Assembly (NCBI GenBank): GCA_965203175.1
Contig: OZ241867.1
Coordinates: 352,001 to 416,000, forward strand
Source: Candidatus Latescibacterota bacterium
Lineage (GTDB): Bacteria > Latescibacterota > UBA2968 > UBA8231
Reading direction: 5' to 3'
Length of the DNA stretch: 64,000 nt
Position numbers and translations under genes: made by a program. The notes under the pieces are model-generated. The model ran no database searches and had not been told where the DNA came from. It saw only the letters and a list, made by a program, of their open reading frames with translations. Below, in pieces: positions 1 through 49,610 of the stretch (position 1 is its first letter; each line of letters starts with the position of its first letter).

Positions 1-897
1 TATAATTGAATAGCGCGGAAGCGCCGCTCGCTGCGCTTCGATTTCCTCCTGCACGCGGCGCGCTAGGGCCTCGCAATCCGTGATACACACGGCCGCCACC
101 CCCCAGCCGTGCTCGGCTTGCGAGAGCAAATCCGCAGCTACCAAGCGCGGATCGGCCGCCGCGTCGGCGAGCACCACAATTTCCGACGGGCCGGGCAACA
201 GCGCGATGCCCACCGCGCCGAAGACCTGCCGCTGCGCGGCCACCGTATAGGGAGAACCCGGGCCGACGATCTTGTGCACCGGCGGAATGCTCTCCGTGCC
301 ATACGCGAGCGCAGCCACGGCCTGTGCCCCTCCTACGGCGTACACCTCGTCAATGCCCAACAAACACGCGGCCGCCGCAATCGTCGGATGCACCTTGCCG
401 GTTTCCACCGGCGGCGAAACCACGCAGAGCTGGTCCACGCCAGCCACCTGCGCGGGCACGGCCGTCATCAGCAGGCTCGAAAACAGCGGCACCTCGCCAG
501 CCGGCACGCACAAGCCCACCCGCTCGATGGGCGTGATTTTCTTGCCCAGCATCACCCCGTCGCCGTCTTCGACAAACCACGAGTTGAGTTTTTGCCGCTC
601 GTGGAAGGCGCGGATATTAGCTACCGCCGCCTCCATGGAAGCGCGCAGGCTCGGGTCCAGCGCAGCTTCTGCCTCGGCGAGCACGGACGCTGGCACCCGC
701 AACTGCTCAGGGCACACCTCCACGCCATCGAACCGCTGCGTTAGCGCGCACAGCGCGGCATCGCCTTCTTTCCGCACCTGCCGCAGAATGTCTCGCACCG
801 CGTCCTCGACCTTGGGGTCGGATTCGGGGCGGCGTGCAAACAGGGCGGCGAGCGGCTCGGCCAGCGGCTCGGAGGGATAGGACGCAATGGGCACCAT
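1..897 (-). CDS. hisD: Histidinol dehydrogenase (3' part runs off the window)
   Basis: Hand translation, absent from the ORF track: MVPIASYPS...AVANIRAFHERQ...PIERVGLCVPAG...VGGAQAVAALAYGTESI...KIVGPGS...LPGPSEIVVLAD...AADLLSQAEH, typical HisD motifs. Confidence 0.93.
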   Translation of the reverse strand, partial: MVPIASYPSEPLAEPLAALFARRPESDPKVEDAVRDILRQVRKEGDAALCALTQRFDGVEVCPEQLRVPASVLAEAEAALDPSLRASMEAAVANIRAFHERQKLNSWFVEDGDGVMLGKKITPIERVGLCVPAGEVPLFSSLLMTAVPAQVAGVDQLCVVSPPVETGKVHPTIAAAACLLGIDEVYAVGGAQAVAALAYGTESIPPVHKIVGPGSPYTVAAQRQVFGAVGIALLPGPSEIVVLADAAADPRLVAADLLSQAEHGWGVAAVCITDCEALARRVQEEIEAQRAALPRYSII

Positions 898-902
898 CCG
901 TT

Positions 903-1170
903 CAGTGCTATCGGGGTGTGATGTGTTGAGTCATCGTGAGTTCGAGCCGTTTTAGTCCCTGTGAGGAAGGGTGTCTTATACCTAGGCTGACCACTCGACC
1001 TGCTATTCGTAACGCATCCGGCAGGTATTCGGGCGCAACAAGCAAGCAAGGAAAAACATGAAACCAAGTCAACATAAATCGCCTTTCTCTCAGGGAGCAC
1101 AAGGCCCCGTCGAGAAAGCCGCTCCTATCCCCCCGAACGGCTAAAGCCGTCAGTCCCACGGAGATTATTG
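903..1170 (-). mobile_element. Truncated non-autonomous IS200/IS605-type element: left end plus 5' half of a structured RNA
   Basis: 1068-1170 aligns to the tnpB element left end at 48316-48420 (hairpin GACTGACGGCTTTAGCCGTT on minus) and is preceded by CCAT on minus; interior is homologous to the cargo of 3966-4445 and 10746-11282. Confidence 0.75.
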
Positions 1171-1769
1171 ATGGGCTTGGCTTCGTCTCCTCCCTCGGCC
1201 CCCTCGTTGCCGCTCAGTCCGTTTCATCAGGTGAGGTCCCTGAAATTCGATCTAACTGCCTGTTTTTCCTCGAAATCATCAGTACATCAGCATCTGCTGA
1301 CGATTTTGTAGTACAGCCTGATGGGCAACGGTCGTCTTTCGATCTACCAGCCAGCTCGCGGGCGATCCGTGGGGTGCTCGCTCCATCCCTCGGCGCGGGC
1401 GGTTGTCGGTTCGGGTCCTCGTCGCTTTCAATGCCGTTGAGCCAGAACGCCAAGCCCAAAAGACGGCTTGGCGTTCTGGCTTACAAGCGCGTAGCTCGAT
1501 GCGCTCACCTTCGCCTTGGGTTCGTCTAGGAGTGCGCCAGCGCTTGCCCATGCAAGCCGAACTAACATGTAAAGAAGCAGGCTTAGTAAAAGTGCTCGGC
1601 TTGGGTCAACTGCTCGGGGCAGACCGCTTCGCGGGCCATTATACCATCTGGTCTGGGATCTGGAACTGGAAAGGGAATTATATCTCTGAGTGCCCAATCC
1701 GTAGGAAAAACGAAATCGTATCAAATGTCAACCACTGACGGCTGAAGCGCGTCAGCTTGTCCCTGGCCG

Positions 1770-2888
1770 TTACCCCGCCGCAGCGGAGTAGACCGAAACT
1801 ATAGGCTCGTTGACAAGAGCCCTTGCCCGGATGTTCCGGGCGGCGTTGCAATCGGCGTGAGCTTGATGTCCACATCGCTTGCAACAAAACCGGGATTGTG
1901 AGGAGCGATTACCGCGTTCGACATGTTCGCACTGAGAACACATCTGAGAAGTGTATTTGGGATCGACGATCTTGAGCAGTACGCCAGCTTGTTCAGCCTT
2001 GTAGCTGATAAACTGGCGAAGCTGATCGAAGCCCCAACTTCCCATGCGGTTACGTTGCGGCTTGCGAAACCGTATCCGGTCGCGGATGCCCTTGAGGTCT
2101 TCAAGAGCAATACCGAGACCGGTGTCTTTGGCCTTCGCAACGAGTCGCTTAGAGAGGGTGTGATTGGTGTTGCGACGAAAGCGTGCTTCTCTATCGGCAA
2201 TGCGTTTGAGCTTCTTGCGGATACGCTTGCGTCGTCGTGCATTGGCAGCCAAGTCGGCTGCCGATTGAAGAGCTTGCTTGAGCGTCTGGCATTTGACGCG
2301 AACTTCCTCCACGTCTTTACCGGTGTGAAGCTCGCCGTCCGAGTCAGTAGCCAGGTTCTCGACACCAAGATCAACGCCGAGAAAGTCGTCGGTATCACAC
2401 GGCGGCTCGGGTTCATGCTCGACACAGGCCATGATAAACCACTTGCCGTCCTTGCGGCGCACCAGTTCGGCAAACTGCTTGACTTGGTCAAACTGGTTGG
2501 CTTGGTAGTCGCCCATCACCATCGGGATGTCATGGCGAACACCATCCGCCGTCTTGATATTAACGGTCGTCAGGCTTTTGTAGCGGAACGAGCCTTTGCG
2601 GTAGGGAATAGCCGCCAGCGGACGAAACGAGACTTGCTTGGACTTGTCCCGCTTGTAGTTAGCCGCCACCTGAGAAAACGTCAGGATCGCAATATCAGCG
2701 GGCAGATCAAACGTCTCACGGACTTCGTAGTAGTACAGCTTGTGCAGCGCATAGCTGTTGGCCAACTGGCGCTCAAAGGCTTTTTCAGCCACCCAATTAC
2801 ACGCGGCATTAAAGCGGCGCATGGTCTCTTCGAGCGCGTTGGCTTGCTCAGCCATAGGAAGGAGCTTGATTTGTATAGTTCGTTTCAC
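1770..2888 (-). CDS. tnpB: RNA-guided endonuclease TnpB
   Basis: RuvC motifs LGVDLG, ALEDL, HADCNAA intact; Zn finger CSQC/CKRC; GTG start chosen by alignment with the 48452 paralog. Confidence 0.93.
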   Translation of the reverse strand: MKRTIQIKLLPMAEQANALEETMRRFNAACNWVAEKAFERQLANSYALHKLYYYEVRETFDLPADIAILTFSQVAANYKRDKSKQVSFRPLAAIPYRKGSFRYKSLTTVNIKTADGVRHDIPMVMGDYQANQFDQVKQFAELVRRKDGKWFIMACVEHEPEPPCDTDDFLGVDLGVENLATDSDGELHTGKDVEEVRVKCQTLKQALQSAADLAANARRRKRIRKKLKRIADREARFRRNTNHTLSKRLVAKAKDTGLGIALEDLKGIRDRIRFRKPQRNRMGSWGFDQLRQFISYKAEQAGVLLKIVDPKYTSQMCSQCEHVERGNRSSQSRFCCKRCGHQAHADCNAARNIRARALVNEPIVSVYSAAAG

Positions 2889-2895
2889 AAGAATG

Positions 2896-2924
2896 AATAT
2901 AGCCATAAGACGGCAGACTGTCAA
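2896..2924 (-). promoter_or_regulatory. Sigma70-like promoter for tnpB
   Basis: On minus: TTGACA-17 nt-TATATT, 7 nt before the GTG; TTGACA is conserved at the same place in the 48316 element. Confidence 0.6.
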
Positions 2925-3024
2925 GCTATGTCGGCCTTCCCTCAGGGACACTGCGTGCCCATCGTTCAGGCCGCTCTCTTTTCCCCTGCCAGCTAAAGCA
3001 GGCAGTCCCCAAGCGAGATTTTTT

Positions 3025-3824
3025 ATGGGCTACGCGACACAGAAGCCATTAGCATTATTGGAGCGAATCGTAAAAGCCAGTTCTGACGAGGGCGATGTTG
3101 TACTAGATCCTTTCTGCGGCTGCGCTACGACACTTGAGGCGGCTCATAAGCTCAATCGCCGGTGGATAGGTATCGACATCGCTATACACGCTATCAAGCG
3201 CGTGGCGGCCGTACGGCTCAAAGATCGTCTAGGACTTTCTGAAGGTGTAGATTTTGAGATTGGAGGCGTTCCCAAAGACGTTGAGGGAGCAACATTATTG
3301 TGGGAACGAGATAAGTACCACTTTCAAAAGTGGGCCGTAGAGCAGGCCGAAGGCTTTGTTACAAGTAAGCGTTCTGCTGACGGTGGGGTTGATGGTCGCC
3401 TTTACTTCGAGGGCAATGTACCAGAAGGCAAAGGTCGCCAGAAATTGGAGAGCATGATCTTGGAAGTGAAAGGCGGCCAGAATGTAACACAAGCCGATCT
3501 ACGCAGTCTGCGCGGCGCGTTGGCCGATGATTCCTCTGCGTGTATGGCCAGAATGTAACACAAGCCGATCTACGCAGTCTGCGCGGCGCGTTGGCCGATG
3601 ATTCCTCTGCGTGTATGGCTGGTCTGATTATTCGGGTTCCGTTAGGGCCACGTAAACAGACCAACTTTGAGCGCGAAATGACAAGGGCCGGTAAGGTCCC
3701 AATTAGGGGCCGCGAATATCCTGTATTGCAATTACGAACCGTTGAGCAAATTCTTGCTGGCGATCCTTTTGACACCCCTCCCCCGCTAGGTCGCCATCAA
3801 ACGCCCCAGCAGCTTGTCTTTTAG
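3025..3824 (+). pseudogene. C-terminal fragment of an N6/N4 DNA methyltransferase fused to an Mrr-like restriction endonuclease domain
   Basis: GYATQKP..LLERIV..VLDPFCGCATT..WIGIDI then DGGVDG..EVKGG; N-terminal half missing at the IS junction; frameshifted by a 71-bp tandem duplication. Confidence 0.85.
3475..3619 (+). repeat. Exact 71-bp tandem duplication
   Basis: GGCCAGAATGTAACACAAGCC...GCGTGTAT starts at 3475 and again at 3546. Confidence 0.95.
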
Positions 3825-3937: not shown

Positions 3938-3965
3938 CATCAACTTCAAGCCCATAAATTATCAT

Positions 3966-4445
3966 AAAAATCTCCTTTGGAGCCCCCCGTCTTTAGGCGG
4001 GGGAGGAAAAAGGTGTAGTCTCTGCGACAGGCGGCGCAACGCACCAGGCGTTGTGGCGTCCCCGAGCAGAGGCTTATATTAGGTGTGCGCCCGAATGGCT
4101 CCCGGATGCGTACGAGCAGTCTGGCCACAGTATTGTGGCCACATAGGAGCCCGAGCCAACAGCTTAGGCGATAAGGCACCCTCCAAGAGGGGTAAAACTG
4201 TTTAGCCCTTCGGGGCATGCGCTCAGGATGGCTGTTGGCACTACACGTCGATAGCACTGTATGCGTGGATCGAGTGCGCACTGGTAGTTCAGCCAGCCCG
4301 ACAGTGCGTTCCGAATGCCTCGGGGTCTCGCCCCCCAAGTGGCTGCTTGGTGTCAGCAGGCATATAGTTCCGCTGAGTAGCTCAATGTCGCATCCTGCGA
4401 TGTTAAGCCGCGTCCGTGATTCTCCTATTCGCACGGTGCTCGTGT
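3966..4445 (+). mobile_element. Non-autonomous IS200/IS605-type element with non-coding cargo; right end lost
   Basis: TCAT|AAAAATCTCC left end with CCCCCGTC-TTTA-GGCGGGGG hairpin; near-identical inverted copy of 10805-11282. Confidence 0.85.
4084..4445 (+). ncRNA. Putative structured non-coding RNA carried by the IS605-ended element
   Basis: TATATT just upstream; nested stems GGCTCC/GGAGCC, GCCAACAGC/GCTGTTGGC, GCACTGT/ACAGTGC, a UUCG tetraloop; compensatory changes versus the 903-1040 homolog. Confidence 0.55.
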
Positions 4446-4650
4446 AATGTTTAGGTTGCCTTCCTGTTTCGTTGCATAAGATCTCATGTGGTGTTTGAAA
4501 TGCCAAGCCCTTTCGCGGCCGATGATTGAGCCGATCCATGATGTGTTGTCAGACAGTGTATCGAGGGCCGTGCCTTTGGGCACATACTGGCGAATCAGCC
4601 CGTTGGTGTTCTCGTTGAGTCCGCGCTGCCAGGCATGATAGGGATGGGCG
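4446..4650 (-). pseudogene. IS30-family transposase C-terminal remnant
   Basis: AHPYHAWQRGLNENTNGLIRQYVPKGT...RLNHRPRKGLAFQTPHE. Confidence 0.85.
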
Positions 4651-4844
4651 TTGAATTCAAGTTTTATTATGATTATGATTTTTTGCCTAATTACGGTATA
4701 ATTGGCCCCGCCAGGGCCTATCGCGCCTCAAATCCCGTTGTATCAACGATAACCAAGGGTATCCCGCATCCTGATGGAGGGCGACCTGCTCGACGGGGCG
4801 CACATCAAGACGGGTACGCTACCGGTCAGTCCCGAACCAAGAAG

Positions 4845-10490: not shown

Positions 10491-11816
10491 GTGCGACCTT
10501 AAAGTCGCACAATTTGAGTGGGGGCAACCCCTCGACCAGTGTGCAGGTCAATCATCAGTCCTCCCTGCGTTCGGAGTAATCTGGAGGTTGGAAGCAGAGG
10601 ATGAAAAGCCTAATAGCGCGGCGAGCCATCAGCCAAACTTGGGCAAGATGAAGATAGGACGGGAGAACGAGAGTGAATCTGTGGTAGAGGCGTCGTAAAG
10701 GTTGACCGCTGAAAACGATGGATGATACAGCGGATGGGTCCACATGTCAGCCACCGACGGCTAAAGCGGTCGGCTTGTCCCTGCCTTTTCCCCCATCCTC
10801 CTAACACGAGCACCGTGCGAATAGGAGAATCACGGATGCGGCTTAACATCGCAGGATGCGACATTGAGCTACTCAGCGGAACTATATGCCTGCTGACACC
10901 AAGCAGCCACTTGGGGGGCGAGACCCCGAGGCATTCGGAACGCACTGTCGGGCTGGCTGAACTACCAGTGCGCACTCGATCCACGCATACAGTGCTATCG
11001 ACGTGTAGTGCCAACAGCCATCCTGAGCGCATGCCCCGAAGGGCTAAACAGTTTTACCCCTCTGGAGGGTGCCCTATCGCCTAAGCTGTTGGCTCGGGCT
11101 CCTATGTGGCCACAATACTGTGGCCAGACTGCTCGTACGCATCCGGGAGCCATTCGGGCGCACACCTAATATAAGCCTCTGCTCGGGGACGCCACAACGC
11201 CTGGTGCGTTGCTCCGCCTGTCGCAGAGACTACACCTTTTTCCTCCCCCGCCTAAAGACGGGGGTCTCCAAAGGAGATTTTTATGAAAATGGCTTCCATC
11301 ATGGCCATAGTGAACTGGGATCCAGAAGTATCTCAGCGCGCACACTATTGACCCCGGCGCAAAGCAGCCTCCCACCCCTATTGCATCTCAGTTGTGCGGA
11401 AAAGGGCAACCCCGTTAGAGGTCTCAACCTGAGTAACCCGACTGCAAAGAAGGGCCAAACCCTCAGCGGGCACAGGATGCTCCAAAAAGCCAATGCCAGC
11501 CGTGGAAACACACGGGGAATACATAACCCGCTGGATATGCTGACGTGGAGCAGGTGAGTTGACCTTGAGAAGGATAGCAAAAGACCTAAATCGGATGTGG
11601 ATGCGCAGGGCCTTTAGGCGAGCAGAGCATCGGAGGGAAACCAAGGTCTGGAGGCGGTCCGACAAGGAAGCGGGAGCAGTAGAGTCTCTGGAAAGCATGA
11701 TACTCGCTATACATACTCCAGCCCAACTTGCTTGAGCCGTGTGCGTTGAAAGGCGCACGCACGGTTCTGAGGTTCTGAGGGGAGGGGGAGGCAGTGAGGT
11801 CTCCTCCTTACCCGAC
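10491..11816 (+). mobile_element. ORF-less group II intron (IIB-like), interrupted by an IS605-ended element
   Basis: 5' GTGCGACCTTAAAGTCG; domain V GAGCCGTGTGCGTTGAAAGGCGCACGCACGGTTC; domain VI ending CCTTACCCGAC; EBS1 CAGAAG (11323-11328, in a stem-loop) pairs with exon CTTCTG (10485-10490). Confidence 0.9.
10746..11282 (-). mobile_element. Complete 537-bp non-autonomous IS200/IS605-type element with structured non-coding cargo
   Basis: On minus: TCAT|AAAAATCTCC left end; right end CAGGGACAAGCCGACCGCTTTAGCCGTCGGTGGCTGAC| like the tnpB elements; no TSD and no credible ORF. Confidence 0.88.
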
Positions 11817-19893: not shown

Positions 19894-20111
19894 GTTGGGG
19901 CAATGGCATGGGGCCTTGACTGGATGCGAAGGCCCCCCCCGCCGAGCGGCCGGCCGCCGACAACGCCCAAGCAGATCGGCCCGCCCCGACCGGGAACTGT
20001 ACAGGAGCGGAGAAAGAGTACTCCCTATTGATCGCCGATGCTCGATACTCCCGCGAGCAAGCCGCCGCCGCCGTGGAAGAGGCCACCCCCACGACCAAAG
20101 ACGACATACTA

Positions 20112-20211
20112 GGCGCGAAGGCACTCGTCAGTAAACTGACAGTTTCGGCCTAACTCCGTATCGGCGGGGTAGGTCAGGGACAAGCCGTCTTCTTTAGGGG
20201 ACGGTGGTTGA
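20112..20211 (+). mobile_element. Orphan right end (omegaRNA-like scaffold) of a tnpB element
   Basis: GCACTCGTCA..AGTTTCGGCCTA..GGCGGGGT..CAGGGACAAGC..GGTGGTTGA aligns to 49512-49610. Confidence 0.8.
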
Positions 20212-21096
20212 TCAATACACGACCTTGTTGAGCGGGTATTCAATGATGCCTTCGGCCCCGAGCCGCTTGAGCTGGGGAATCAACTCGCGCACCACGCGCT
20301 CGTCGGCGACGATTTCCAGCGCCACCCACTCGTCGTCCATCTGGCTGGAGACCGTGGGCGTGTGCAGGGCCGGCAGCCGGGCGATGACGCGGTTGAGCTG
20401 GGCGCGCGGCACGTTCATCTTGAGGCCGACCTTGTGCTCGGCTTCGAGCGCGCCCTTGAGCAGCATCAGCAAGTTCTCGGCCTTCTCCCGCTTCCAGCCA
20501 TCGGCCCACGCGGCCTTGTTGGCAATGAAACGCGGGGTCGATTCGCAGACCGTATCGACGATGCGCAGCCGGTTGGCCTTGAGCGATGCGCCCGTCTCGG
20601 TCGCCTCGACGACGGCATCCACCAGCCCGGGAATGCCGGCCTTGACCTCGGTCGTGCCCCACGAAAACTCCACCTCAGCCTCCACGCCGCGCGCCTGCAA
20701 GAAGCGGCGGGTCACGCCGACTAGCTCGCTGGCGATGCGGTGGCCCTGCAGGTCTTCGACGCCTTGGATGGGAGAATCCTCGGGCACGGCAATGACCCAG
20801 CGCAGGGGCCGCGCCGTGCTCTTGCTGTAGGTCAACTCGCCGACTTCGACGACATCGGCCTCGCTTTCGAGAATCCAGTCCCGGCCCGTCAGGCCCACAT
20901 CGACGACGCCGCGCGCCACGTACTGGGCAATTTCCTGCGCCCGGAACATCAGGCCCGCAAGCTGGGGGTCGTCGATGTCGGGCACGTACGAGCGCGGCGC
21001 GAGCCGCACCCGATAGCCAGCGCGGACAAACAGGTCAAACGTGGAGTCCTTCAGACTCCCGGACGGGAAGCCGATCTTCAATTCCTTGGGATTCAT
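20212..21096 (-). CDS. hisG: ATP phosphoribosyltransferase, long form
   Basis: LKIGFPSGSL..RAQEIAQYV..GVVDVGLTGRDW..WGTTEVK..ETGASLKANRL plus C-terminal regulatory domain (GAEGIIEYP). Confidence 0.96.
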   Translation of the reverse strand: MNPKELKIGFPSGSLKDSTFDLFVRAGYRVRLAPRSYVPDIDDPQLAGLMFRAQEIAQYVARGVVDVGLTGRDWILESEADVVEVGELTYSKSTARPLRWVIAVPEDSPIQGVEDLQGHRIASELVGVTRRFLQARGVEAEVEFSWGTTEVKAGIPGLVDAVVEATETGASLKANRLRIVDTVCESTPRFIANKAAWADGWKREKAENLLMLLKGALEAEHKVGLKMNVPRAQLNRVIARLPALHTPTVSSQMDDEWVALEIVADERVVRELIPQLKRLGAEGIIEYPLNKVVY

Positions 21097-48315: not shown

Positions 48316-49610
48316 AAGAAATCACCGTGGGACTGACGGCTTTGCGCCGGTTCAGGGGGATAAGTGCAGCCTGCACGAGGGGGCCGCAGGCTCCCTGAGT
48401 GCAGGCTGATATAGCTTGACACGGTCCTGCCACATGGTCATATGTACTATTGTGAAACGGGTGATACAAATCAAGCTCCTTCCGACAGCGGAGCAGGCGG
48501 ATGCGCTGGAGCAGACGATGCGCCGCTTCAATGCCGCGTGCAACTGGGTAGCCCAAAAGGCTTTTGAGCGCCGTCTGGCCAACAGCTATGCCCTGCATAA
48601 GCTGCACTACTATGCGGTGCGCGAGCGCTTTGACCTTCCTGCTGACATCGCCATCCTAACGTTTGCCCAAGTGGCGGCCTGCTACAAGCGCGATAAGAGC
48701 AAGCACGTATCGTTTCGTCCGCTGGCGTCGATTCCCTATCGCAAAGGCGCGTTCCGCTACAAGAGCCTAACGGCTGTCAACATCAAGACGGCCGATGGCA
48801 ACCGCCACGACATCCCGATGATTATGGGCGACTACCAGGCCGAGCAGTTTGGCCATGTCAAGCTATTTGCCGAGCTGGTGCGTCGCAAGGACGGCAAATG
48901 GTTCCTGATGGCTACCGTCGAACACGACCCCGAGCCGCCGTGCGAGCCCGACGATTTCCTCGGCGTCGATCTCGGGATGGAGAACCTCGTCACGGATTCT
49001 GATGGCACGATCCACCCCGGCGGCGACGTTGAAGCGGTGCGCATCAAATGCCAGATACTCAAACAGACTCTTCAATCGGCCGCCGACAAAGCAGCCAATC
49101 ACAGACGACGTAAGCGTATTCGTAAGAAGCTCAAGCGCACCGCCGAGCGCGAGTCTCGCTTTCGTCGCAATACGAACCATGTCCTCTCCAAGCGTATCGT
49201 TGGGAAGGCCAAAGACACCGGCCGCGGCATCGCTCTTGAAGACCTCAGAGGCATCCGCGACCGGATACGGTTTCGCAAGCCCCAACGTAACCGCATAGGT
49301 AGCTGGGGGTTCGACCAGCTCAGGCAGTTTGTCGCCTACAAGGCCGAACAGGCCGGGGTGATGCTCAAGCTGATTGATCCAGCGTACACCTCTCAGACCT
49401 GTTCGTCCTGTGGACATGTCGAGCGCGGTAATCGCCCCTCTCAATCCCGGTTTTGTTGCAAGCAGTGTGGGCATCAAGCCCATGCCGATTGCAATGCCGC
49501 CCGGAATATCCGGGCAAGGGCTCTCGTCAACGAGCCTATAGTTTCGGCCTATTCCGCCGCGGCGGGGTGAGCCAGGGACAAGCTGACTGCTTTAGCTGTC
49601 AGGGGTTGAC
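48316..49610 (+). mobile_element. IS200/IS605-family tnpB-only element
   Basis: Boundaries fixed by comparison with the uninterrupted repeat; no TSD; right end GGGGTTGAC|. Confidence 0.92.
48452..49570 (+). CDS. tnpB: RNA-guided endonuclease TnpB, close paralog of 1770-2888
   Basis: LGVDLG, ALEDL, HADCNAA intact. Confidence 0.93.
   Translation: MKRVIQIKLLPTAEQADALEQTMRRFNAACNWVAQKAFERRLANSYALHKLHYYAVRERFDLPADIAILTFAQVAACYKRDKSKHVSFRPLASIPYRKGAFRYKSLTAVNIKTADGNRHDIPMIMGDYQAEQFGHVKLFAELVRRKDGKWFLMATVEHDPEPPCEPDDFLGVDLGMENLVTDSDGTIHPGGDVEAVRIKCQILKQTLQSAADKAANHRRRKRIRKKLKRTAERESRFRRNTNHVLSKRIVGKAKDTGRGIALEDLRGIRDRIRFRKPQRNRIGSWGFDQLRQFVAYKAEQAGVMLKLIDPAYTSQTCSSCGHVERGNRPSQSRFCCKQCGHQAHADCNAARNIRARALVNEPIVSAYSAAAG

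What the first reader, a model, noticed from the sequence alone, without database searches (positions are those of the whole stretch)
3966..4445. IS605-ended elements carrying a conserved, covarying, protein-free structured RNA (three copies)
Seen: 10746-11282 (complete), 3966-4445 (near-identical, truncated) and 903-1170 (diverged) have IS200/IS605-type ends and follow YCAT, like the tnpB element at 1727-3024, but carry non-coding cargo (~360 nt in the longer copies). The diverged copies keep GCGCCCGAAT, CCGGATGCGT(T)ACGA, CAGC(T/C)TAGG, TAAG(G/A)CACCCT, TAAAAC and CGATAGCACTG. Stems covary: GGCTCC/GGAGCC versus ACCTGC/GCAGGT, and CCCTC-CAA-GAGGG versus TTCCT-CAC-AGGGA. An extra hairpin is present in only one variant, a UUCG loop occurs, and TATATT precedes the motif. 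Inference: a large functional RNA mobilised in trans by TnpA. It runs into a TnpB-type right end, so it could be an extended trans-acting guide RNA, a ribozyme or an RNP scaffold. I cannot match it to HEARO or a standard omegaRNA by eye, and it may already be catalogued.
Basis: partly seen in the sequence, partly recalled or inferred. Interest (0 to 1): 0.85.

Follow-up and report, generated by a model that had tools for sequence, protein, structure and literature searches.

The report
Gene-less transposons carrying an enlarged guide RNA
These are small gene-less IS200/IS605 transposons whose only cargo is a conserved, folded RNA built like the guide RNA of the TnpB nuclease but with a large extra domain, a new variant of a kind of element that is already known.

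Summary
The window has three copies: A 10746-11282(-), B 3966-4445(+) and C about 898-1170(-). A fourth, complete copy (D) lies elsewhere in the genome, and two relatives lie in other genomes of the genus. All follow YCAT and have IS200/IS605-type hairpin ends. D has a clean empty site in a sister genome. No coding signal was found and no Rfam family matches.

Covariation is strong. Of 88 pairs, 94% are paired, and 29 pairs changed on both sides against 14.6 in shuffles and 2-7 in slid controls.

The 3' half has the layout of a TnpB omegaRNA:
- a right-end hairpin with a UUUA loop at -20..-17;
- a long-range stem 2;
- a pseudoknot between the last six bases and an upstream loop, which covaries.

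The new features are a 5' domain of about 125 nt (about 200 nt counting two hairpins that family-1 tnpB 3' ends also have) and a branched, enlarged stem 3. Two invariant loops in them are complementary.

My best reading (0.6) is a gene-less PATE-type element whose enlarged omegaRNA uses the genome's six intact TnpBs in trans and is moved by TnpA from two autonomous IS605 copies. Gene-less elements that carry omegaRNAs are already in print, so this is a new variant. No expression data were found.

The parts
10746..11282 (-). Copy A: complete gene-less IS200/IS605 (PATE-type) element, 537 nt. It follows TTTTCAT and ends ...GGTGGCTGAC.
11174..11282 (-). Left end of A, with a subterminal hairpin (about 11245-11264, CCCCCGTCTTTAGGCGGGGG). 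The left ends of C and D resemble those of the two autonomous tnpA+tnpB IS605 copies.
   Evidence: hairpin hit 11245-11264
11168..11173 (-). TATATT, a possible -10 box ahead of the RNA. With TTGTGG 18 nt upstream it falls below the scan's threshold.
   Evidence: the scan did not list it. Inference only.
11097..11165 (-). 5' hairpin (GGCUCC/GGAGCC) that begins with GUGCGCCCGAAU. In A/B it carries an inserted hairpin at 11105-11134. The stem covaries in C, D and E.
10977..11102 (-). 5' accessory domain. It comprises long-range helix H1 (11084-11093 with 11010-11019), hairpin Ha (11057-11069), an A/B-only UUCG hairpin, and hairpin H2 (10982-11005) with the invariant loop CGAUAGCACUG.
   Evidence: (helices 1, 3, 4)
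10992..10996 (-). AGCAC in the H2 loop. It is a candidate loop-loop partner of GUGCU at 10809-10813. Both are invariant, so there is complementarity but no covariation.
   Evidence: helix 5 (5 of 5 rows paired, never vary)
10915..10972 (-). Hairpins H3 (10941-10972) and H4 (10915-10927). Hairpins in the same order occur in the 3' coding end of family-1 tnpB.
   Evidence: (helices 6, 7). The correspondence to tnpB is by eye.
10892..10897 (-). GUCAGC, the upstream strand of the pseudoknot with the last six bases of the element.
   Evidence: helix 8; family-1 variants
10875..10882 (-). 5' strand of the long-range helix H6 (equivalent to omegaRNA stem 2). Its partner is 10777-10785 (GGCAGGGAC, positions -40..-32).
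   Evidence: helix 9; D aligned to the family-1 model across this helix
10789..10872 (-). Enlarged, branched stem 3: H7 (10838-10872) and H8 (10789-10836, loop GUGCU at 10809-10813). It replaces a hairpin of about 20 nt in family-1 tnpB elements.
   Evidence: helices 10-12; 85-nt insertion in D
10746..10774 (-). Right-end hairpin (equivalent to omegaRNA stem 4, 10753-10774, UUUA loop at -20..-17) and tail GGCUGAC (10746-10751 is the pseudoknot strand). A guide would start at 10745 and run downward.
   Evidence: (helix 13)
3966..4445 (+). Copy B: 99% identical to A, opposite orientation, follows TTATCAT. It is cut off inside H8, so it lacks the H6 3' strand, the right-end hairpin and the tail.
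898..1170 (-). Copy C: diverged, follows GCCCAT. It keeps the left end, the 5' hairpin, H1, Ha and H2, and stops at the start codon of hisD.
   Evidence: (95.8 bits)
1727..3024 (-). Family-1 tnpB element (ORF 1770-2951, 393 aa; Pfam OrfB_IS605 and Cas12f1-like TNB). Its omegaRNA region is 1727-1849. It is the most likely supplier of TnpB in trans.
49491..49610 (+). OmegaRNA/right-end region of a second family-1 tnpB element in the window.
   Evidence: 133.9 bits

Best explanation
The three window copies, with one more in the genome and relatives in two sister genomes, are gene-less IS200/IS605 elements of the PATE type. Their cargo is an omegaRNA-type guide-RNA scaffold that has grown larger.

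Shown:
- They have subterminal hairpin ends.
- They insert 3' of YCAT without duplicating the target.
- They carry no gene.
- They fold into a conserved structure of about 350 nt.

Inferred from layout:
- The last roughly 230 nt are a TnpB omegaRNA. The right-end hairpin is stem 4, the long-range helix is stem 2, and the final six bases form a pseudoknot with an upstream loop.
- Stem 3 is enlarged into two branches.
- A 5' domain of about 125 nt (about 200 nt counting hairpins H3 and H4, which family-1 tnpB 3' ends also have) may dock on that branch through two complementary loops.

Inferred mechanism:
- The RNA is transcribed from the left end and reads through the right end into the flank. 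This gives a guide that matches the element's own insertion site.
- TnpB made by the genome's six intact family-1 tnpB elements binds it in trans.
- TnpB then cuts the empty YCAT-plus-flank site left after excision by TnpA, which comes from the two autonomous IS605 copies. Recombination restores the element.
- The extra RNA domains would stabilise the RNA, or help it compete for a protein that it does not encode.
For: Ends and mobility:
- The last 37-50 nt match the right ends of the genome's tnpB elements at 82-89%.
- The left ends of C and D match those of the two tnpA+tnpB copies at 83-85%.
- YCAT precedes 6 of 6 cargo copies, 5 of 6 family-1 tnpB elements and 2 of 2 autonomous copies.
- G023 holds the exact empty site of D, CCTTCAT|AGCGTCAACTC.
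- A and B are 99% identical at two loci, which points to a recent move.

Structure:
- 94% of cells are paired, and 29 of 88 pairs changed on both sides. 0 of 500 shuffles reach this; slid controls give 2-7.

OmegaRNA layout, compared with ISDra2 passages read (UUUA loop at -20..-17; stem 2 3' strand near -35..-32; -6..-2 in the pseudoknot):
- Here the UUUA loop is at -20..-17, the stem 2 3' strand is at -40..-32, and the tail at -6..-1 pairs with an upstream loop.
- The pseudoknot pair changes together. It is GUCAGC/GCUGAC in A, D and E, GUAAGC/GCUUAC in F, and GUCAAC/GUUGAC in most family-1 tnpB elements.
- A covariance model of the family-1 omegaRNA aligns D across stem 2, with 85 nt in place of about 20 nt (23.1 bits, E about 1.6e-5). 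It also hits A (30.4 bits) and E (29.5 bits).
- CAGGGACAAGC is invariant in 9 of 9 family-1 rows and is present in A, D and E.

Supply in trans:
- The genome has six intact family-1 tnpB genes and two tnpA genes.
- G020, which holds the complete copy E, has three intact family-1 tnpB genes. G005, which holds the decayed copy F, has only a fragment with a stop codon.

Precedent:
- The discussion of a 2023 preprint says that PATE elements 'often encode' omegaRNAs that TnpB from other elements must act on in trans (passage read).
Against: - There is no evidence of transcription. No listed run that holds the stretch is on record as RNA. The simple promoter scan found no site in the left end of A or D.
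- Sequence homology to tnpB elements is statistically detectable only over the last 40-50 nt (nhmmer). The match of H3-H5 to the tnpB 3' coding end is by eye.
- For A and E the family-1 model did not align through stem 2 as it did for D.
- No element with this RNA next to a tnpB gene was found, so the cognate protein is a guess. The tail and pseudoknot differ from family 1 by one base pair.
- The pseudoknot strand overlaps a possible local hairpin, so two folds compete.
- The loop-loop contact rests on two invariant 5-mers only. A rearranged relative in G044 keeps one loop but shows no partner.
- If TnpB trims omegaRNAs at the 5' side, as is described for other systems, the 5' domain might not stay in the complex.
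- Thermodynamic stability is unremarkable: z = -1.3 for D and -2.5 for A.
- Only six copies (four complete or nearly so) underlie all counts, and the structure was derived from four of them.
Confidence: 0.6

Rival explanations
1. Decaying relic. The elements are internal-deletion derivatives of a tnpB element. They still transpose through their ends, but the RNA no longer does anything. The fold is inherited from the ancestral omegaRNA and the 3' coding end.
For: - PATEs arising by core deletion, one of them keeping part of the tnpB C-terminal coding region, are described (passages read).
- B, C and F are truncated or decayed.
- The family is rare: 3 of 31 genomes of the genus.
- There are no expression data.
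Against: - The copies differ by 26-45% yet keep 94% pairing, with 29 pairs compensated. These include helices that have no counterpart in tnpB elements (H1, H2, H7, H8). That points to selection on the fold while the element was already gene-less.
- A and B are 99% identical, so the element moved recently with the RNA intact.
- Loops of 5 and 11 nt are invariant across all copies.
Confidence: 0.2
2. The enlarged RNA has a function of its own that does not run through TnpB. It could be a ribozyme (for example one that trims its own 5' end), an RNP scaffold for another protein, or a regulatory RNA. It would use the IS605 ends only as a vehicle.
For: - About 125 nt of covarying 5' domain, plus a branched insertion, lie outside the canonical omegaRNA core.
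- Invariant loops suggest specific contacts.
- IStrons show that IS605/IS607 elements can carry a catalytic RNA next to an omegaRNA.
Against: - No Rfam family, ribozymes included, matches at E<=10 or E<=5 on A, D, E or F.
- The best-conserved block shared with tnpB elements is the part that contacts the protein in ISDra2, namely stem 2, stem 4 and the tail.
- No conserved neighbouring gene was seen. The copies sit in unrelated contexts.
Confidence: 0.12
3. An IStron-like element: a self-splicing intron joined to IS605 ends, which removes the element from host transcripts.
For: - The overall plan resembles a gene-less IStron, with a structured RNA after the left end and an omegaRNA-type right end.
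- The 5' flank ends in U (YCAU).
- A, B and D have a GUGCG-like motif.
Against: - No group I or group II match lies inside any copy. The only Intron_gpII hit, at 11732-11816, is on the other strand and belongs to a different element.
- Conservation ends at ...GAC, not at a G.
- The GUGCG motif lies about 115 nt inside the element and is absent from C, E and F.
- Copy D is intergenic, and copy A is antisense to its host intron.
Confidence: 0.03

Closest known systems
PATEs (palindrome-associated transposable elements): gene-less IS200/IS605 derivatives, some of which encode omegaRNAs
   Same: - Subterminal hairpins instead of inverted repeats.
- Insertion after a 4-5 nt motif without target duplication.
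[quoted passage not shown]
- Ends shared with tnpB and tnpA elements of the same genome.
- Dependence on TnpA, and presumably TnpB, in trans.
The definition was read. The statement on omegaRNAs was read.
   Different: The cargo is not just fused ends or a plain omegaRNA. It has a covarying 5' domain of about 125 nt and a branched insertion of about 85-100 nt in stem 3, with two invariant complementary loops. I found no description of such an extension in the papers searched.
ISDra2 TnpB omegaRNA (cryo-EM structure, PMC10097598)
   Same: - The scaffold ends at the right-end boundary.
- Stem 4 carries a UUUA loop at -20..-17.
- Stem 2 is a long-range helix whose 3' strand lies in the -30s.
- The last bases before the guide form a pseudoknot with an upstream loop.
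- Stem 3 is the variable, dispensable part.

   Different: - The ISDra2 scaffold is 116 nt and overlaps or follows tnpB. Here the RNA is about 350-420 nt and has no tnpB in cis.
- There is no detectable sequence similarity. The mapping is by position and pairing, not by a structural alignment.
Family-1 tnpB elements of the same genome (for example window 1727-3024)
   Same: - The last 37-50 nt are 82-89% identical.
- The junction CAGGGACAAGC is the same.
- The order of hairpins before it is the same.
- The target motif YCAT is the same.
- The pseudoknot is in the same place.

   Different: - Stem 3 is a hairpin of about 20 nt there.
- There is no H1/H2 domain.
- The RNA overlaps the end of the tnpB coding sequence.
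- The tail is GUUGAC rather than GCUGAC.
IStrons (group I intron plus IS605/IS607 element)
   Same: A large structured RNA and an omegaRNA share one small transposon, and the two RNA functions can interact.
   Different: No group I core, no splice-site features and no Rfam match.
HEARO / IscB omegaRNA
   Same: A large structured RNA carried by IS200/IS605-superfamily elements that turned out to be a guide-RNA scaffold (recalled; mentioned in the methods passage).
   Different: HEARO lies at the left end, upstream of iscB, with the guide at its 5' side. Here the RNA abuts the right end. No RF02033 match was listed.

Membership tests
PATE (gene-less IS200/IS605 derivative) | Palindromes close to both termini, no terminal inverted repeats | tested here: met
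   The left-end hairpin is CCCCCGTCTTTAGGCGGGGG and the right-end hairpin is CCGACCGCTTTAGCCGTCGG in A. The right-end hairpin covaries (helix 13).
PATE (gene-less IS200/IS605 derivative) | Inserts next to a short target motif without target duplication | tested here: met
   G023 carries CCTTCAT|AGCGTCAACTC uninterrupted where G000 has copy D. YCAT precedes 6 of 6 copies.
PATE (gene-less IS200/IS605 derivative) | Too short to encode a transposase; non-coding | tested here: met
   The elements are 537-565 nt. PF07282 did not hit the cargo at E<=10. 0 of 7 ORFs had a Pfam family at E<=1. Substitutions show no codon periodicity and indels are not multiples of three. No frame is conserved.
PATE (gene-less IS200/IS605 derivative) | Ends related to IS605-type transposons of the genome | tested here: met
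   The right end matches five family-1 tnpB elements, and the left end of A matches the sixth. The left ends of C and D match the two tnpA+tnpB copies.
TnpB omegaRNA | Scaffold abuts the right-end boundary, so that the flank supplies the guide | tested here: met
   Conservation among A, D, E and the tnpB elements stops at ...GAC. The boundary is confirmed by the empty site. Use of the flank as a guide was not tested.
TnpB omegaRNA | Core fold: stem 4 with its loop near -20..-17, long-range stem 2, and a pseudoknot that uses the bases just before the guide | tested here: met
   Positions were read and compared with the passages. Pairing is 97-100% in helices 8, 9 and 13. The pseudoknot has one compensated pair in F and a second state in family-1 elements.
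TnpB omegaRNA | Encoded in cis with tnpB, at or over its 3' end | tested here: not met
   No tnpB lies in any of the six copies. Hence this is 'omegaRNA-like, used in trans' and not a standard omegaRNA.
TnpB omegaRNA | Binds TnpB and directs cleavage next to the target motif | not testable with these tools
   This needs binding and interference assays.
IStron (group I intron + IS605/IS607) | Group I intron core | tested here: not met
   No RF00028 match at E<=10 on A or at E<=5 on D, E and F.
IStron (group I intron + IS605/IS607) | Splice sites at the element boundaries, with a terminal G (established knowledge of group I introns) | tested here: not met
   The element ends in ...GAC in A, D, E and all tnpB copies.
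Group II intron | Domain V/VI, and a 5' GUGYG at the boundary | tested here: not met
   RF00029 hits only 11732-11816(+) and one distant locus, not the cargo. The GUGCG-like motif is internal and is absent from C, E and F.
Any Rfam 15 family | Match to a curated covariance model | tested here: not met
   Nothing on the cargo reached the gathering score. At E<=10 there were only chance-level hits on the left-end hairpin. Nothing was found on D, E or F.

The most novel reading that the evidence does not exclude
The 5' domain and the branched stem 3 form a separate, docked RNA module through the AGCAC/GUGCU loop-loop contact. This module would give a gene-less element a new capability. It might capture TnpB away from the elements that encode it (a guide-RNA hyperparasite), take over a role that the protein or the mRNA context plays in ordinary elements, or process the RNA's own 5' end. 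That would be a natural example of a guide-RNA scaffold evolving new domains once it is freed from overlap with a coding sequence.
Probability: 0.18. Interest if true: 0.75.

Novelty: new variant of a known kind. Interest (0 to 1): 0.45.

Why it matters
If the reading is right, these elements are transposons reduced to two ends and a guide RNA. They would depend on one element for the transposase and on another for the nuclease.

They also show what an omegaRNA does when it no longer has to share sequence with a gene: it grows. That bears on how the large, elaborate guide RNAs of Cas12 and TnpB relatives evolved. It also offers natural scaffold variants for TnpB engineering, in the form of a tolerated insertion site in stem 3 and a 5' add-on.

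As it stands this is a well-supported structured RNA of about 350 nt that is absent from Rfam. It has a narrow known range and no functional data.

Tried and rejected
Group II intron idea. I first took GUGCGCCCGAAU for an intron 5' end. I dropped this because E and F lack the motif, C has UUGCG, no domain V lies in the cargo, and the neighbouring Intron_gpII hit belongs to a host intron on the other strand.

Group I / IStron idea. Rejected: no Rfam match and no terminal G.

Decayed protein gene.
- tblastn with the window's TnpB found nothing at the cargo.
- PF07282 in six frames found nothing there.
- Pfam on the ORFs found nothing.
- Long antisense open frames (89-115 codons) turned out to lie in different, non-homologous frames in different copies. 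In the frame that is open in E and F, A has five stops.
- I ran no further search on them.

Wider search for relatives.
- BLAST in 41 relatives and in all 31 genomes of the genus.
- Covariance model R1 in the genus and in 151 genomes of the phylum. It found only its own six training sequences, plus one weak hit in G050 (22.5 bits, E 0.07) that I did not follow. The first look scored only 24-118 candidates per genome, so weak relatives may have been missed.
- Pattern scans: 2 records in genome contigs, 0 in metagenome contigs with two patterns, 0 in viral contigs. The patterns were strict, so absence means little.

Homology to tnpB elements.
- The nhmmer profile of the cargo reached tnpB elements only over their last 40-50 nt.
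- Global pairwise alignments to the tnpB 3' end were not convincing beyond the right end.

Sequencing runs.
- No RNA holder was listed for the stretch.
- Contigs of four runs laid on it hold pieces 80-99% alike, including one 544-nt contig that matches both ends with 395 other letters between them.
- The sequences themselves could not be retrieved for covariation work.
- Parts without cover are not interpreted.

Promoter scan. No site in the left end of A or D at the tool's threshold.

Supplementary files of the papers were not opened. They may hold PATE or omegaRNA lists that bear on novelty.
Full report
WHAT IS THERE

The window holds three copies of one short element.
- A, 10746-11282 on the minus strand, is complete at 537 nt.
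- B, 3966-4445 on the plus strand, is 99% identical to A over 479 nt. It lies in the opposite orientation 6.3 kb away and is cut off at its 3' side.
- C, about 898-1170 on the minus strand, is diverged and stops after the hairpin whose loop reads CGATAGCACTG.

The whole genome is one contig of 6.58 Mb. It has a fourth copy, D, at 5935750-5936314, which is complete and about 74-78% identical to A. I searched the 31 genomes of the genus with BLAST and with a covariance model of the 5' domain.
- E is a complete relative in G020, 69-74% identical to A.
- F is a decayed relative in G005. It keeps the RNA core and the last nine bases but has lost the right-end hairpin.
- G044 holds a rearranged element that shares only the ends and the last roughly 95 nt.

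IT IS A MOBILE IS200/IS605-TYPE ELEMENT WITHOUT A GENE

Each copy starts right after YCAT: TTCAT, ATCAT or CCCAT. Each has a hairpin with a CTTTAG-type loop near each end. The complete copies end in GGTGGCTGAC.

The last 37-50 nt match the right ends of five of the genome's tnpB elements at 82-89%, and the first 45 nt of A match the left end of the sixth. The left ends of C and D match the left ends of the only two tnpA-carrying copies at 83-85%. The same YCAT precedes 5 of 6 family-1 tnpB elements and both autonomous copies.

In G023 the flanks of D are joined as CCTTCAT|AGCGTCAACTC. That is a clean empty site with no duplication, which fixes both boundaries.

Nothing in the cargo looks coding.
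- tblastn with TnpB found nothing there.
- The TnpB zinc-ribbon model gave 19 genome matches at E<=10 in six frames, none of them at the cargo loci.
- Seven ORFs had no Pfam family at E<=1.
- Substitutions are spread evenly over the three codon positions, and indels are of 1, 2, 5, 14 and 20 nt.
- The long antisense open frames are not the same frame in different copies.

By the published definition (passages read), these elements are PATEs.

THE RNA STRUCTURE IS REAL

RNAalifold on A, D, E and F predicts 92 pairs, 31 of which show compensatory changes. I then made a six-row alignment and gave it a structure with two added pseudoknots.
- 88 pairs are 94.0% paired, against 82.1 +/- 1.3 in shuffles.
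- 29 pairs changed on both sides, against 14.6 +/- 2.6 in shuffles. 0 of 500 shuffles reach the observed value.
- When the 3' partners are slid by 1-3 columns, pairing falls to 36-45% and compensated pairs to 2-7.

The structure was derived from four of the rows, which inflates the percentage paired. The number of compensated pairs is less sensitive to this.

Thermodynamic z-scores are modest, -2.5 for A and -1.3 for D.

Rfam 15 has no match on any copy. The gathering-score scan gave nothing on the cargo. The E<=10 scans gave only chance-level hits on the left-end hairpin.

WHAT KIND OF RNA

I count positions back from the last base of the element.
- The right-end hairpin has its UUUA loop at -20..-17.
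- The 3' strand of a long-range helix (GGCAGGGAC) lies at -40..-32.
- The final six bases, GCUGAC, are complementary to GUCAGC in an upstream loop.

The cryo-EM paper on ISDra2 TnpB (passages read) describes the same plan for a bona fide omegaRNA.
- A UUUA tetraloop sits at -20..-17 in stem 4.
- Stem 2 pairs -35..-32 with -81..-84 and encloses a variable stem 3.
- Nucleotides -6..-2 form a pseudoknot with the loop region of stem 1.

The pseudoknot here changes in step. It is GUCAGC/GCUGAC in A, D and E, GUAAGC/GCUUAC in F, and GUCAAC/GUUGAC in most of the genome's family-1 tnpB elements. Variants with GUCAAU or GUCAGC keep wobble pairs.

I aligned nine family-1 tnpB 3' ends. The same order of helices appears, with covariation in stem 1, stem 2 and stem 4. 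The junction CAGGGACAAGC is invariant in these nine rows and is shared with A, D and E.

A covariance model built from those nine rows finds the cargo copies.
- In D it aligns across stem 2, with 85 nt where the model has about 20 nt of stem 3 (23.1 bits, rough E 1.6e-5).
- A and E score 30.4 and 29.5 bits but are aligned less cleanly.
- B (truncated) and F gave no significant hit.

A profile HMM of the cargo, by contrast, reaches tnpB elements only over the last 40-50 nt. The kinship is therefore one of ends plus architecture, not of long sequence similarity.

WHAT IS NEW IN IT

Two parts have no counterpart in the tnpB elements.
- The first is a 5' region. It comprises a covarying hairpin, a long-range helix H1 that closes a three-way region with conserved single strands, and hairpin H2 with an invariant 11-nt loop. 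Two further hairpins, H3 and H4, lie between it and the core. By eye they seem to correspond to hairpins in the tnpB 3' coding end.
- The second is a branched insertion in stem 3 (H7 and H8).

The H8 loop GUGCU is invariant and complementary to AGCAC in the H2 loop (5 of 5 rows). Because neither loop varies, this is complementarity and not covariation.

No other letter was listed at either loop in the contigs laid from four other runs. However, 49 further differences were not shown.

HOW IT MOST LIKELY WORKS

Steps shown: the ends, the insertion site, the absence of a gene, and the fold.

Steps inferred:
- The RNA is made from the left end and runs through the right end. Its 3' extension then matches the flank.
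- TnpB from one of the six intact family-1 tnpB genes binds the scaffold in trans.
- After TnpA from the two autonomous copies excises the element, the TnpB-RNA complex cuts the rejoined YCAT-plus-flank site. Recombination with a sister copy then restores the element. This follows the published model for tnpB elements, and the same authors suggest it for PATEs.
- The extra domains might stabilise an RNA that is no longer part of an mRNA, or help it compete for a protein made elsewhere.

Two observations are consistent with this dependence.
- G020, which holds the intact copy E, has three intact family-1 tnpB genes. G005, which holds the decayed copy F, has only a fragment with a stop codon. 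This is three genomes, not a test.
- A and B being 99% identical argues for recent movement of an intact RNA.

WHAT SPEAKS AGAINST IT OR IS MISSING

- There is no transcript evidence and no promoter at the scan's threshold.
- No relative has the RNA next to a gene.
- The cognate TnpB is unknown.
- The pseudoknot strand overlaps a possible local hairpin.
- All statistics rest on six related copies.
- The family is rare in genomes: 3 of 31 in the genus, none in about 120 other genomes of the phylum at the sensitivity used, and 2 named records (both titled Latescibacteria/ota MAGs) in the species-representative collection.
- Contigs in four other runs, two of them labelled sponge metagenome, do carry pieces 80-99% alike.

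COMPARISON AND NOVELTY

Gene-less IS200/IS605 elements (PATEs) are known. The 2023 preprint on TnpB homing states that they often encode omegaRNAs that TnpB must use in trans. One haloarchaeal PATE is described as keeping part of the tnpB 3' region. IStrons show a large catalytic RNA and an omegaRNA sharing one element, but this RNA is not an intron.

My four full-text searches, and the passages I read, turned up no description of an omegaRNA-only element with a large conserved 5' domain and an expanded stem 3. Supplements were closed.

I therefore rate it a new variant of a known kind, of moderate interest.

Noticed in passing
window 10537-11816 (+), interrupted at 10746-11282: Copy A sits, antisense, inside domain I of a group II intron derivative that lacks an ORF. 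The flanks match a 2.8-kb intron at genome 4455156-4457930 at 70-87%. Domain V/VI is at 11732-11816 (61.8 bits). The reverse-transcriptase region present in the paralogue is missing here.
   Followed up: partly
window 895-1003 (-): Copy C is truncated exactly at the ATG of a histidinol dehydrogenase gene (ORF 1-897, minus strand; Pfam Histidinol_dh, E 1e-101). The remnant's left end and 5' RNA domain now form that gene's upstream region and may supply its promoter or leader.
   Followed up: no
window 4446-4662: B's homology to A ends at 4445. The sequence that follows reads, on the minus strand, like the C-terminal end of an IS30-family transposase, with a frameshift. The motif is recalled and was not tested against a library. 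The 197-aa ORF 3946-4539(-) has no Pfam hit.
   Followed up: partly
window 20095-20212 (+): An orphan family-1 right end/omegaRNA segment (55.3 bits with model R2). It ends in GGTTGAT instead of GGTTGAC. No tnpB and no obvious left end lie upstream.
   Followed up: partly
window 11105-11134 (-) and 4119-4148 (+): The 30-nt hairpin segment found only in A/B (GAGCAG..GGCCACAGTATTGTGGCC..) recurs at 90-96% identity, one to four times per genome, in at least ten other genomes of the genus. In this genome it occurs almost only in A and B. It may be a small mobile hairpin or part of another repeat.
   Followed up: partly
L014 1080-1212 (G000:C1 about 5935566-5935698) and arrays in G023, G006, G012, G001, G021: A unit of about 130 nt beside copy D occurs as tandem arrays in several genomes of the genus (many hits to query 381-512). 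Its nature is unknown.
   Followed up: no
window 3466-3620: A duplicated segment of about 55 nt (ggccagaatgtaacacaagccgatctacgcagtctgcgcggcgcgttggccgatgattcctctgcgtgtatgg) interrupts a DNA-methylase-like reading frame downstream of the tnpB element. The frame 3025-3824 contains stop codons.
   Followed up: no
L016 about 1193-1586 (G044:C1 3451964-3452357): A rearranged relative of the element. It has a D-type left end and the last roughly 95 nt (H8 with the GUGCU loop, stem 2 3' strand, right-end hairpin, GGCTGAC). Its middle is unrelated and lacks the CGATAGCACTG loop and the pseudoknot strand.
   Followed up: partly
family-1 tnpB 3' coding ends, e.g. window about 1850-1901 (-): A hairpin inside the tnpB coding sequence covaries (GUUGCAA/UUGCAAC against GUUGUAA/UUACAAC), and the change alters an amino acid (Cys to Tyr). 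This suggests that the omegaRNA of this family extends at least 175 nt into the gene.
   Followed up: partly
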